64,000 bases of DNA from Eledone cirrhosa (taxonomy: Eukaryota). The notes beneath the pieces are model-generated. The model saw only the letters and a program-made list of their open reading frames with translations. It had not been told where the DNA came from and searched no databases. The stretch covers positions 316,510,001 to 316,574,000 of the forward strand of contig OZ024743.1 of NCBI GenBank assembly GCA_964016885.1. Reading direction: 5' to 3'. The translations under genes were made by a program, and so were the position numbers. Shown here in pieces: positions 15,581-56,847 of this stretch (its first letter is position 1; each line of letters starts with the position of its first letter).

Positions 15581-15626
15581 GGTTTTTATTCTTTCTGACT
15601 TATTTTCTATTCTTTTACCATTTTAG

Positions 15627-16213
15627 GTAAAACATCAACGAAACCTGCTGTGGTTGCAAACCAAGATGAAGATGAGGCTAAGTTACAACCCATTGATTCA
15701 GATACGAACAAAAATGAAATGTCACAGCTGGAGGATTCAAAACCCAGTGCACTAAATGTTTTTGGCCGGCGATGGATTGTATTAGCATTGTTCTGTTTCT
15801 TTTCGATGAGCAATGCTTATCAATGGATCCATTTAAATATCATTGCTAATATCATAGAGAATTACTATAATGTTAGCTTACCAACAGATGAATACCAGAG
15901 AGAACTGGCTGTCGACTGGCTTTCAATGGTTTATATGCTTGCATATATTCCACTAATTTTCCCAGCCTCATGGCTTTTGGATCGAAAGGGTCTCCGAGTG
16001 ATTGTCATCTGTGGAACACTGCTGAATTGTATAGGAGCATGGCTGAAGTGTATAAGTGCTTCTCCAGATCGCTTCTGGTTGTTGATGATTGCACAGACAA
16101 TTTGTGGTATTGCTCAAATCTTTGTTCTTGAAGTACCACCACGACTGGCTGCCGTTTGGTTTGGACCTAATGAAGTGTCAACAGCAACATCTATCGGTGT
16201 TTTTGGCAACCAA
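15627..16213 (+). CDS. FLVCR: FLVCR-family (SLC49) MFS transporter, first large coding exon seen
   Basis: Polypyrimidine-AG acceptor ending at 15626 and GTATGT donor at 16214. Encodes RRWIVL...NAYQWIH...VDWLSMVYMLAYIPLIFPASWLLD...PPRLAAVWFGPNEVSTATSIGVFGNQ. First in-exon ATG at 15719. Confidence 0.95.
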
Positions 16214-17346
16214 GTATGTATGATCCAAATTATCTAATTGAAAATATGAATTTTATTAGTTCATTTAGTTGTTGTTGTTATTTAGCTTCAGTTCAGTCTG
16301 AAAATACAGTAGTAAATATAGAGTAATCTAAATGCTAAAGGGTTAAAGATGTTCCACCCTTCAACATCCTGTCTTTTTTTTTGGGGGGGGGTACTGTTAC
16401 TCGGACTACATTTCTCCAAATTGTCGTCCCTTTTGTAAATATGTTATGGTACGATTTGAAAGGAAATATGACTGCTGTTTCTATCATGTCAAGCGACTAC
16501 TCAAAGGCTCTTTTTGGTGATTCATCAGAAAAATAAATAGCTTTCCTTGGGAAGGATATTTTTGAAGGATTGAGCTAAAACATTCAGTTTTGTAACAATA
16601 TTTTTAAATAGTTTCAAATTTGTTGACACTTTTTGAGACCACCTCCAATTTTACAATAAATGCTATTTGTTCTAAAGTGTTTATATTTATCTAAAAACAT
16701 TCCATCATAATTTTATTTAGGAATCTTTCATAAGCTATGTTCCAAACACCAACTTAATAGATATCTAGCTTAATAATAAGAAAATTGTAACGAAAGGTTT
16801 TTACATAAATATAGACATCATCATCATCATGATCACCATTTAACGTCCATTTTTCCATGATAGCATGGGTGAGACAATCTGTCCCATTGTCAGACAAGCT
16901 AGATCAGATGACCATGTTTTACTCATACAGAAGTGATTTTGGCTTGGTTTCTATGACTGGATACCCTTCCTAACACCAGCCACATCTACAGTGAGTACTG
17001 GGTGCCTTTTATCGTGGTACCAAGATGACCACTTTACAGTGTGGACTGGGCAATTTTTTCATGACACCAACACAACCACTTTTCAGTGTGGACTGGGTGC
17101 TTTTGTCGTGGCACCAAGATAAGCTCTTTATAGTGTGAATTGAGGGCTTTTGTTGTGGCACCACTTTATAGTGTGGATTGGGCATTTTTGGGACTCTTTC
17201 AAAACAAATTTTATCATAGGACCAGGTTTGGTTTTAGGCATGTTGGCATCAAAAGAGTTAAAGAGCAACACTTATGTCTATTCTTCCTTCTAAATCACCT
17301 GGATTTATATTTTTTCTTTTGGTGTTCTCAGTGGTTTGTCATAAAT

Positions 17347-17713
17347 ATTGATTTTTAACTTAATAATAAGCAATAGTCTTAATCCATAGTCCAATTTCAC
17401 ACCACCACCTGCTGCCACATGTTGCAAGCACACAAGCAAGGTCTCTGGTTTGTGAGAATATTTTCTTTCCTCAAACCCCACTCCTCATCAGTCTATATAT
17501 TTACTATATATATATATATATTTACTATTTAGTCAGCTAGTGAAAGACAGTGTTCCAGTCCCTTTACAGGACCTCCAAGTGGTGGGGTTTGGGGAAAGAA
17601 AATATTCTCACAAACCAGAGACCTTGCTTGTGTGCTTGCAACATGTGGCAGCAGGTGGTGGTGTGAAATTGGACTATGGATTAAGTCTATTGCCCATTAA
17701 GTTAAAAATCAAT
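17347..17713. repeat. Inverted repeat (about 135-bp arms) with a TA-containing spacer
   Basis: 17347-17482 is the reverse complement of 17581-17713; TCATCAG (CTGATGA on minus) lies next to the left arm. Confidence 0.9.
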
Positions 17714-19053
17714 CATCATCATCATCATCATCACCGTTTTACGTCCGTTCTTCCACGCTAGCATGGGTTAGACGGGTTGTCCTGTTGTGGGCAGTGTCTG
17801 GTCGGCTGACCATGCCTTGCTCATACAGGAACTGATCTGGCTTGATTTCTACAGCTGGATGCCCTTCCTAACACCAACCTCATTTACAGTGAGTGCTGGG
17901 TGCTTTTTCGTGGCGCCTACACGTCCACTTTACAGTGTGGGCTGGGTGCTTTTTTGCCGTGGCACCTCCACGACCACCTTGCGGTGGGGGGGGGGGGGGG
18001 CATATTGTTTATATGCTTCAGCATGTACCCATGGGAGGTCGGGTACCCTGTATTACTGCGTGACGCCAGAAGTCACGGTCGTGTGTCATTGACTTTGAGA
18101 GGTGTAGTTGGGTAAGGTCGGCTTTTATCACCTCATCCCAAGTCATCTTGGGTCTCCCCACTCCGCGGTTTCCATCAACTTCTAGTGCTCTGCACCTTTT
18201 TATGCAGCTGTCATCCTTCATACGCATCACATGTCCATACCAGCGTAACCGCCTCTCCTGCACGCAGCATTTGATTCCTCTTATGCTCAGTCTCTCTCTC
18301 AATTCATTTATGCTTTGTCGTTCACGTATATTACTGTTACACATCCATCGGAGCATGCAGGCTTCGTTTCTCTCTAATCTACGTAAGTCTTCCACCTTCA
18401 GCGCCCAGGTCTCACTACCATGCAACATCGCTGTTCGGATACACGCATCATACAGTCTGCCTTTCATTCTGAGGGAGAAGCCGTTTGCAGCTAGCAGTGG
18501 TAGTAGTTCCCTAAACTTCTTCCATCCCGTTCTTACCCTAGTTATTGTACTTTCTGAGCACCCACCTCCGTTGCTAATTCGGTCACCTAGGTAGCAGAAG
18601 CTGTCTACTGTTTCTACAGGGCCCTCCCAGAGATTGGTGGTACTTGTTTCCTGTGGCTGTTTGCTTGCTGTTTCAGCACAGCTGCTGCATGTGAATCCTA
18701 CATTCTTAATTAAGCTTCCTGAGATCCCGCTACATCTCTTGTGTACCCATTGTTTGCATTTGGGGCAAAGAATGGAGTTCCTACCTACACCTTTCCTACA
18801 TACTGAGCAAGGCCATTTCCCTGAGGGGATCTGGGTTCTGTTTTCTCGTCTACTTATAAGGACCTTAGTCTTTGTCATGTTGACTTTGAGGCCCTTTCTC
18901 TCTAGTCCCTGCTTCCAGGTTTGGAATTTATTCTCTAGTTCTACCATAGATTCAGCTATGAGTGCGAGGTCATCAGCATACAGGAGTTCCCATGGGCATC
19001 CGGTCTTAAACTCCTCCGTTATTGCCTGCAGGACTATGATGAACAGGATTATT
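17712..19053 (-). mobile_element. Young 5'-truncated RTE LINE (RT C-terminal half with PHD-like insert, long 3'UTR, (GAT)n tail)
   Basis: ORF 18018-19067 with LLYADD; highly similar to 62668-64000 and 33915-34890. Confidence 0.95.
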
Positions 19054-19107
19054 GTATGACAAACCACTATATATATTTATGACAAACCACTATATATATA
19101 TTTACTA

Positions 19108-19724
19108 TTTACAAACACACCAAACTTATAATAAATGTTCAGTAAACCCATACGTACATATATATGTGTGCATGTATGTATATATATACATACTACTGTA
19201 CGTCTGTACACATATATGTAAGTACGTATACCTACTTATATTTAGGTATCAGCCGTACTAAGAGTGAGAAATAAAATTTTGTTTCATTCTTTTCCATTTA
19301 TCGTTTTCAGTACGCCTGGCCGACTAACTCACTTGATATGCAAATTAGGCTGCTCAGCCGTTAATATGCATAAGGAAAGTATATACTTTCAAATATTCAA
19401 TTATCTGACAGAAAGGTATACGATGCTGACGATAGCTAATAAGCTTGAAACTAGTACATCGTTCCTGTGTCAGTGTTGAACAAAAGGGCGATGATGGTTG
19501 CCAAGCACTGTACGGCGTAATTCGGACTATTTGTTTACAAACAAACCGAACATTATAATAAATATTCAGTAAACCCATACGTATATATATATATGTGTGC
19601 ATGTATGTATATATATACATACTACTGTACGTCTGTACACATATATGTATGTACGTATACATACTTATATTTAGGTATCAGCCGTACTAAGAGTGAGAAA
19701 TGAAATTTTGTTTCATTCTTTTCC

Positions 19725-19730
<6 letters not shown>
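19108..19730 (+). mobile_element. Retrozyme/pseudo-LTR-like element: about 1.45 tandem copies of a roughly 430-bp unit with a central HHR
   Basis: Direct repeats at 19108-19301 and 19534-19730 flank the HHR; the element ends in (TA)n. Confidence 0.8.
19405..19473 (+). ncRNA. Hammerhead ribozyme, type I, intact core
   Basis: ACGATG CTGACGA TAGC-TAATAA-GCTT GAAAC TA GTA^CATCGT. Stem I extends through bulges (AGG/CCT, CTGACA/TGTCAG). Predicted cut after 19456. Confidence 0.88.
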
Positions 19731-19761
<31 letters not shown>

Positions 19762-19843: not shown

Positions 19844-20086
19844 AATAGTGACGAAACATAAGTCAATTGCATGAACTCATAATCCTTTATTTACTGCTAT
19901 ATATATTTCGATGATAGCCATTGAATGATGGTGATACCATCAACACTATAAACACAGAGCTGGCATATCTAAGAACTGACTAACTGCCTGATGAAGTCAT
20001 AGCCATTCAATGGCTATCATCGAAATATATATAGCAGTAAATAAAGGATTATGAGTTCATGCAATTGACTTATGTTTCATCACTAT
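19844..20086. repeat. Fold-back element (about 84-bp arms) containing an HHR
   Basis: 19844-19927 is the reverse complement of about 20003-20086; flanked by TA tracts. Confidence 0.9.
19983..20038 (+). ncRNA. Hammerhead ribozyme, type I
   Basis: ACTGC CTGATGA [AGTC ATAGCCATT C AATGGCTAT CATC] GAAA TATATATA^GCAGT; stem I ACTGC/GCAGT; palindromic stem III. Confidence 0.8.
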
Positions 20087-56619: not shown

Positions 56620-56847
56620 TATAAAGAAAAAAAGCTGAAATCGAAAATGCAACTGGAGTCTTATTTTTTAAAAAAATTATATATATTTATTTGGTTCCTT
56701 TACTGGTTTCGCAGTTCTTCTGCTTTTCAAAAGCAGAGTTTTGAAAAGCAGAAGAACTGCGAAACCAGTAAAGGAACCAAATAAATATATATAATTTTTT
56801 TAAAAAATAAGACTCCAGTTGCATTTTCGATTTCAGCTTTTTTTCTT

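What the first reader, a model, noticed from the sequence alone, without database searches (positions are those of the whole stretch)
19108..19730. Retrozyme-like roughly 430-nt monomer with the best-formed HHR
Seen: direct repeats of about 195 bp (period 426-429) flank a single HHR with an intact core and a bulged, extended stem I. An octamer ATGCAAAT lies at 19338-19345. Established: tandem HHR monomers yield unit-length and circular RNAs, and the octamer is an snRNA-type enhancer element. Inference: the 1.45-unit structure fits reverse transcription around a circular RNA, or a tandem pLTR. The element abuts the 5'-truncation point of an RTE copy (19053) across a short duplicated ATGACAAACCACTATATA motif.
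Basis: partly seen in the sequence, partly recalled or inferred. Interest (0 to 1): 0.7.

Follow-up and report, generated by a model that had tools for sequence, protein, structure and literature searches.

The report
Promoter-bearing hammerhead retrozyme, Penelope footprint
This is one copy of a very abundant, protein-free jumping repeat that carries a hammerhead (self-cutting RNA) motif just behind two boxes matching the host's own U6 promoter; it likely spreads as a small, probably circular RNA that Penelope-type transposon enzymes would copy into TA repeats, but this copy has only one ribozyme and could not release a full unit.

Summary
Observation confirmed: 194-nt direct repeats (period 426-429), an intact type I hammerhead (predicted cut 19456/19457) and the octamer. 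The unit is not single-copy: its 33-nt ribozyme core matches 23,477 times in the genome (control 0), dispersed and in arrays of 12-15 units, with sister monomers of 422 and 466-500 nt. Of 78 insertions, 70 end at one of two fixed points 57 nt apart, mostly in (TA)n; in 23 of 24 two-armed insertions the arms use opposite points. An intact Penelope-like element here has the same kind of ends. 5' ends do not pile up at the cut site, which fits a circular (or uncut multimeric) template. The octamer is not a distal enhancer: with a TATA box it matches the proximal boxes of this genome's U6 and RNase MRP genes (spacing 41 versus 45-47), predicting a start about 46 nt before the cut. The ATGACAAACC motif is host DNA split by the neighbouring LINE. 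Cleavage, transcription and circles are untested; no partner element was identified. The scan noted this kind before on other DNA, including a sister subfamily; its notes led me to the U6 test.

The parts
19108..19730 (+). Whole insertion, 1.45 units of a 429-nt non-coding monomer; 5'-truncated single arm
19108..19301 (+). First copy of the repeated part (monomer positions about 427-194)
19337..19348 (+). Octamer-containing box TATGCAAATTAG, same as the box at -76 to -78 of host U6 and RNase MRP genes
19379..19386 (+). TATA-like box GTATATAC, 41 nt after the octamer start (host Pol III genes: 45-47); predicts a start near 19410 (inferred)
19397..19479 (+). Type I hammerhead with extended, bulged stem I; core 19426-19456; predicted cut 19456/19457
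19450..19455 (+). Palindrome ACTAGT in helix III; 2 bp and a 2-nt loop in a monomer, so cleavage would likely need a dimer (inferred)
   Evidence: weak helix III and dimer cleavage per PMC7761336 passage
19534..19730 (+). Second copy of the repeated part
19669..19673 (+). Fixed family end S1 (monomer 133-137), used by 34 of 78 forward arms
19674..19730 (+). 57-nt 'tail' between the two fixed ends; contains a hairpin and a T4 run (19719-22)
19723..19730 (+). Fixed family end S2 (monomer 187-194), used by this copy and 36 of 78 forward arms
19728..19759 (.). (TA)16 target microsatellite
19049..19107 (.). Near single-copy host DNA between LINE and insertion, holding the duplicated ATGACAAACCACT motif; not part of the element
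17712..19048 (-).

Best explanation
This is a 1.45-unit, single-ribozyme copy of a high-copy, protein-free 429-nt repeat family with a type I hammerhead motif, two fixed insertion ends in (TA)n and a U6-like two-box motif, which likely spreads as a self-cut, probably circular RNA copied by a Penelope-type reverse transcriptase. Shown: copy number, arrays, fixed and paired ends, the boxes, structure-preserving changes in stem I. Inferred steps: (1) the boxes start transcription about 46 nt before the cut site; (2) at loci with two or more downstream ribozymes, read-through RNA is cut (probably as a dimer) into monomers that are ligated into circles; (3) a Penelope-like protein nicks (TA)n and primes one or both DNA strands at two fixed RNA sites 57 nt apart; (4) copying runs through the cut site and round the unit and stops at random, giving one arm or two back-to-back arms, and re-creates the promoter in front of the ribozyme. 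This copy is a one-armed product primed at S2; on its own it would give at most a cut RNA of about 265 nt without promoter.
For: 23,477 exact matches to the 33-nt core, control 0. Arrays of about 12, 13 and 15 units. 70 of 78 forward arms end at S1 or S2, 61 of these 70 followed by (TA)n; 39 of 78 have an inverted arm by automatic call; 23 of 24 with both ends at S1/S2 use opposite sites, p 1.5e-6; 8 of 13 sister insertions show both ends in the printout and all 8 are opposite. This matches the Penelope tail, inverted 5' copy and (TA)n bias (PMC8557442 passages) and two internal start sites with both strands extended (PMC11167929). A young element with an intact 775-aa RT + GIY-YIG frame also ends at two fixed points in (TA)n: 5 and 12 of 20 anchored copies. 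5' ends: 1 at the cut site versus 2.3 expected and 6 at the predicted start versus 4.6, of 77. One sister insertion has 7 full units, 6 identical and one with a single gap, across both arms. Stem I: 97% of cells paired, 2 of 26 pairs with changes on both sides, slid controls 30-44%. Promoter: all 3 independent U6 promoter types with upstream boxes and the MRP gene carry TATGC(A/T)AAT(G/T)AG at -76 to -78 and GTATA(T/A)A at -31; the unit is the best two-box site in the window, 23.8 bits versus 15.3 next; two other hammerhead families keep both boxes at spacing 40-42.
Against: No cleavage, transcript or circle was observed. No autonomous partner shares sequence with the unit: two Penelope-like families checked, only a marginal end motif (p 0.02-0.05 against shuffles, not above TA-flanking background). 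Box spacing is 41, not 45-47, and the matrix rests on 4 promoters. T4 runs (T6-T7 in sisters) lie before the next unit and would tend to stop Pol III. Among genomic copies the octamer is no better kept than average (113 of 155 intact, rank 130 of 302), nor is the catalytic core clearly so (0.027 versus median 0.032). Units within one insertion disagree at shared polymorphic sites nearly as often as between loci (4.9% versus 6.9%), so circle and multimer are not separated by that test; some arrays grew by local duplication. Rfam score is below the gathering cut-off. In 9 Xenopus dimers only 1 cleaved in vitro (bioRxiv 10.64898/2026.07.22.740005).
Confidence: 0.7

Rival explanations
1. Same family and same Penelope machinery, but the template is an uncut linear multimer (from arrays or host read-through), and the ribozyme and circles play no part in mobility.
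For: For the anole element the unprocessed RNA was the main substrate and ribozyme mutants still inserted (PMC11167929). Helix III is weak. Arrays of 12-15 units exist. Within-locus discordance 4.9%. This copy lies on the sense strand about 3 kb after an FLVCR-like exon ending in a GT donor.
Against: No pile-up of 5' ends at the predicted start, which linear primary RNAs would give; T-runs in every unit; near-identical units over both arms of a long insertion; stem I extends upstream of the predicted start and is kept by compensatory change.
Confidence: 0.25
2. The unit is the detached terminal repeat (solo pLTR) of an autonomous Penelope-like element that I did not find; copies are 5'-truncated products of it.
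For: Penelope-type ends; 21 Xenopus repeats matched by retrozymes are PLEs (bioRxiv); only two PLE families were compared.
Against: Copies continue 5' into more monomer, never into an attached ORF, in the loci read; arrays of pure monomer; helix II is full-sized rather than minimal.
Confidence: 0.07
3. The octamer and TATA boxes are chance or relic motifs; the family has no promoter and depends on read-through, as reviews propose for retrozymes.
For: Spacing differs from U6 by about 5 nt; no extra conservation among copies; weak match to the U1/U2/U4 matrix (0 bits versus mostly 10-26); PMC7761336 passage.
Against: 12 of 12 match to a U6 box; all 127 distinct joint motifs in 2.44 Mb (both strands) of held DNA lie at hammerhead units, U6 or MRP genes (the held DNA is enriched for these); kept in three subfamilies and two diverged families.
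Confidence: 0.3
4. Simple local duplication, or a by-product of the neighbouring LINE insertion.
For: The insertion lies 60 nt from the LINE's truncation point.
Against: Thousands of dispersed copies with the same ends; the junction motif continues a single-copy inverted repeat that the LINE split.
Confidence: 0.01

Closest known systems
Metazoan non-LTR retrozymes (Cervera and de la Pena 2020, PMC7229834; Li, Clavereau and Pollet 2026, bioRxiv 10.64898/2026.07.22.740005)
   Same: Short non-coding monomer (429 nt, GC 37%), canonical-sized type I hammerhead with weak helix III and a U.U pair at the base of helix II (as described for axolotl HHR_Amex2), monomers to multimers, predicted self-paired circle with the ribozyme left free to fold (z -6 to -8), co-existing PLEs.
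   Different: Most copies are dispersed 0.6-3-unit insertions with two fixed, paired ends in (TA)n and inverted arms, and carry U6-like boxes; the review PMC7761336 says retrozymes seem to lack promoters and show no motif pointing to the partner. Cleavage and circles shown there are untested here.
Penelope-like elements (Craig et al. 2021, PMC8557442; Frangieh et al. 2024, PMC11167929)
   Same: Partial tandems, inverted 5' copy, optional tail between two start sites, (TA)n targets, type I hammerhead.
   Different: No RT or GIY-YIG ORF; tail 57 nt rather than 30-40; helix II full-sized; no sequence match to the two host PLE families compared.
Newt satellite 2 (Coats, Zhang and Epstein 1994; paper not held; known here from a passage in PMC2220036)
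   Same: Hammerhead repeat with an internal snRNA-type promoter. I recall a start some 46-47 nt before the cut site; recalled, not checked.
   Different: Newt promoter is described as Pol II; here the boxes match Pol III genes (U6, MRP) of the host; insertion ends were not compared.

Membership tests
Non-LTR retrozyme | Type I hammerhead of canonical size | tested here: met
   Rfam HH9 E 0.027 but below gathering
Non-LTR retrozyme | 150-450-bp monomer in tandem, dimers to multimers | tested here: met
   arrays of 12-15 units; sisters 422 and 466-500 nt
Non-LTR retrozyme | GC below 50%, no coding frame | tested here: met
   GC 0.37; only a low-complexity 107-aa frame on the minus strand
Non-LTR retrozyme | No PBS or PPT | not tested
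   no tRNA-complement scan run
Non-LTR retrozyme | [quoted passage not shown] | tested here: not met
   this locus has one ribozyme; met by other loci of the family
Non-LTR retrozyme | Self-cleavage in vitro | not testable with these tools
   bench assay needed
Non-LTR retrozyme | Circular monomer RNA in tissues | not testable with these tools
   needs RNA data; see Tried and rejected
Non-LTR retrozyme | Target duplication longer than 4 bp when present | tested here: inconclusive
   unreadable in (TA)n here; a 9-bp repeat flanks the copy in L059
Penelope-like element (autonomous) | RT plus GIY-YIG ORF | tested here: not met
Penelope-like element (insertion footprint) | Partial tandem, inverted 5' copy, tail between two ends, microsatellite target | tested here: met
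   host PLE control
Penelope-like element (non-autonomous derivative) | Terminal similarity to an autonomous family | tested here: inconclusive
   two families compared, marginal motif only
Host Pol III type 3 promoter (U6, MRP) | Box TATGC(A/T)AAT(G/T)AG and TATA box | tested here: met
Host Pol III type 3 promoter (U6, MRP) | Box-to-TATA spacing 45-47 | tested here: not met
   41 in all three subfamilies
Host Pol III type 3 promoter (U6, MRP) | Drives transcription | not testable with these tools
   bench assay needed
Host Pol II snRNA promoter (U1, U2, U4) | TCAGT at -56, TATA, distal CCCTT motif | tested here: not met
   TCAGC at matching distance but 0 bits; TCAGT at 19470 scores -34.7; no distal motif

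The most novel reading that the evidence does not exclude
An animal retrozyme lineage that carries its own U6-type promoter inside the circle, uses the hammerhead to trim the leader and circularise, and is copied by a dimeric Penelope enzyme that primes both DNA strands at two fixed sites on one RNA ring: a complete, viroid-like life cycle readable from genomic footprints.
Probability: 0.4. Interest if true: 0.7.

Novelty: new variant of a known kind. Interest (0 to 1): 0.48.

Why it matters
How animal retrozymes are transcribed and which enzyme copies them are stated open points (PMC7761336; Li et al. 2026). This family supplies testable answers: a defined two-box promoter with a predicted start, and two fixed, strictly alternating priming sites that predict what a Penelope protein should do with a 429-nt RNA in vitro. 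The locus itself is an ordinary dead-end copy among tens of thousands, and the scan has noted the same kind of element many times, so the gain from this window is confirmation on one more subfamily.

Tried and rejected
RNA evidence: no RNA holder listed; the 4 runs offered are contigs of unknown kind from one study and served only for depth, variants and the LINE boundary. First promoter idea, octamer as distal enhancer with TCAGT at 19470 as proximal element: rejected against U1/U2 promoters; the first matrix was misaligned and was redone. I then wrongly took the octamer as unsupported until earlier notes pointed to U6. Pile-up of 5' ends at the cut site or predicted start: not found (positions 400-429 cannot be measured by that method). 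Apparent cluster of 5' ends at monomer 413-429 (about 6 of 39 one-armed copies): not tested against a proper null. ABAB alternation as sign of a dimeric circle: L259 is explained by local duplication, L250 is not strictly alternating. Hybrid units joined at cut sites: one suggestive case (L079), breakpoints only placed within 142 nt. L059 looked like a retrozyme-PLE chimera but is an insertion into a PLE. 12 dispersed U6 copies lack upstream boxes and, like L291, L298 and L299, were left out of the promoter matrix as probable retrocopies or disrupted copies. Duplicate loci were dropped before counts (12 of 90). No relatives of this genome are held, so other species were not searched.

Full report
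Observation. The window is G000:C4:316510001-316574000 in a 3.0-Gb animal genome. The ribozyme has a 6-bp proximal stem I, a 3-nt bulge and two further helices (z -2.6), a full helix II with a U.U pair at its base, and a helix III of 2 bp in the palindrome ACTAGT. Rfam gives only a sub-threshold HH9 match. Four other hammerhead-like motifs lie in the window.

A large family. A 246-nt query gave 3,303 candidates, 40 scored at 94-100%; the 33-nt core has 23,477 exact matches, reversed control 0. Most loci are short dispersed insertions, but arrays of about 12, 13 and 15 units exist. Sister monomers of 422-424 and 466-500 nt are about 85% identical. Across 16 distinct rows, 97% of cells in the 26 named pairs are paired; 2 pairs change on both sides (A-U, G.U, U.G at 19423/19459); slid controls give 30-44%. 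Related rows inflate this, and helices II and III were fixed by the search pattern.

Insertion footprint. In 78 distinct insertions (90 loci less 12 duplicates) the forward arm ends at monomer 128-143 (34) or 184-201 (36), elsewhere in 8; (TA)n follows in 61 of the 70; 53 exceed one unit; 39 have an inverted arm by automatic call, some of them palindrome artefacts; of 24 with both outer ends at the two sites, 23 use opposite sites (p 1.5e-6). I saw the two ends on both arms; the pairing count was made after reading earlier notes that mention paired ends. In a positional sample of sisters, 8 of 13 show both ends in the printout, all opposite. These are the tail, inverted copy and microsatellite bias of Penelope-like elements (PMC8557442, passages) and fit the two internal start sites and two-strand extension shown for the anole element (PMC11167929, parts 1-2 of 4). 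The host has young elements with an intact 775-aa RT + GIY-YIG frame that also end at two fixed points in (TA)n (5 and 12 of 20 anchored copies; 9 of 29 lacked the anchor). Neither this family nor a second one shares sequence with the unit beyond a marginal end motif, so the partner is not named.

Template. Of 77 mapped 5' ends, 1 falls at the cut site (2.3 expected) and 6 at the predicted start (4.6 expected): copying runs through both, so cut linear monomers are not the main template. Units within a locus share rare variants more often than between loci (0.002-0.003 versus 0.0001 per site) but disagree at polymorphic sites nearly as often (4.9% versus 6.9%). One sister insertion has 7 nearly identical units over both arms. 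Natural monomers fold as stable circles with stems I and II formed (3 of 3, z -6 to -8; the TA-rich palindromes contribute). A circle is favoured, an uncut multimer is not excluded, and some arrays grew by local duplication.

Octamer. U1, U2 and U4 promoters of this genome have TCAGT near -56 and a TATA box but no octamer in place, which first led me to reject it. Earlier scan notes pointed to U6. Three independent U6 promoter types and the single RNase MRP gene carry TATGC(A/T)AAT(G/T)AG at -76 to -78 and GTATA(T/A)A at -31. The unit has TATGCAAATTAG at 19337 and GTATATAC at 19379 and is the best two-box site in the window (23.8 bits, next 15.3, training genes 24.7-26.6). Two diverged hammerhead families in held loci keep both boxes at spacing 40-42. 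This predicts a start near 19410. Against: spacing 41 versus 45-47, four training promoters, average conservation among copies and T4-T7 runs before the next unit. Copies ending at S2 include bases past the T-run, and most include the boxes, so templates must read through it or be circular.

The junction. The LINE on the left (RVT_1 and PHD) is truncated at about 19048. DNA at 17200-17694 and 19054-19107 is near single-copy in runs X1-X3. 17330-17481 is repeated in inverted form at 17582-17713, and the arm continues after the LINE as ATATTTATGACAAACCACT. So the duplicated motif is host DNA split and partly doubled at the LINE junction; the retrozyme sits in the TA run just beyond it.

What this copy can do. 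It holds one set of boxes, one ribozyme and ends at S2. It could give a cut RNA of about 265 nt without promoter, not a 429-nt monomer; monomers would come from loci with two or more ribozymes downstream of a promoter (inference).

Literature. Read: bioRxiv 10.64898/2026.07.22.740005 parts 1-3 of 5 (no mollusc among its 35 species; supplements closed and unseen); PMC7229834 passages and sections 13, 14, 17; passages of PMC8557442, PMC7761336, PMC2220036, PMC13282606; PMC11167929 parts 1-2. Coats 1994 was not held. No supplements were read. Nine searches showed no paper describing paired fixed ends or a U6-type promoter in an animal retrozyme; the library lacks most subscription papers and Repbase was not available. 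A Penelope link for retrozymes and an snRNA promoter in newt satellite 2 are in print.

Verdict. A real element of a known kind with two features that I did not find described: strictly paired Penelope-type ends and U6-like boxes. The scan noted both before on other DNA (74 findings in at least 18 genomes for the words); the locus of e1-8665316 is the 422-nt sister of this family. Interest 0.48.

Noticed in passing
window 19845-20086: Two-armed inverted element of another hammerhead family (core at 19988, TATATA palindrome in helix III), high copy in runs X1-X3, starting at a TA run in other copies.
   Followed up: partly
window 33074, 58485, 56168: Three more hammerhead-like motifs; 33074 and 58485 belong to one family with inverted arms that recurs in at least 11 other loci.
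   Followed up: partly
window 17330-17713 and 19073-19111: Single-copy inverted duplication of host DNA split by the LINE; a 21-nt stretch (TA run plus TTTACTATTTA) is repeated at 17511 and 19091, right at the retrozyme's 5' junction. Origin unexplained.
   Followed up: partly
window 15599-16234: Exon of an FLVCR-like MFS transporter (E 2e-52 to FLVCR1) ending at a GT donor; the element probably lies in the following intron, sense strand.
   Followed up: partly
L245-L248: Young Penelope-like family with a 775-aa RT + GIY-YIG frame preceded by an overlapping 409-aa frame without Pfam match, and no canonical hammerhead by my pattern; the window hairpin at 56690-56781 resembles its terminal part.
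   Followed up: partly
L061-L075, L112-L123, L285-L324, L338: Host snRNA promoter layout: Pol II genes have TCAGT near -56, TATA near -30 and a CCCTT motif near -255; Pol III genes have an octamer box at -77 and TATA at -31.
   Followed up: yes
L059: A PLE carrying a 2-unit retrozyme insertion (9-bp flanking repeat) with an inverted partial duplicate that includes the junction, as if the PLE moved again with its passenger.
   Followed up: partly
L271, L272, L274, L277, L279, L281: A subgroup with GUU instead of GUA at the cut triplet, still allowed by the NUH rule (rule recalled).
   Followed up: no
L079:1665-2531: One unit of a different subtype embedded between units of another, with both switches within 142 nt around the cut site.
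   Followed up: partly
monomer positions 413-429 (window 19520-19536): About 6 of 39 one-armed copies, this one included, stop here, beside two strong hairpins; possible pause site, not tested against a null.
   Followed up: partly
L108: Exact 5-unit higher-order duplication inside a 13-unit array; recent duplication or assembly artefact.
   Followed up: no
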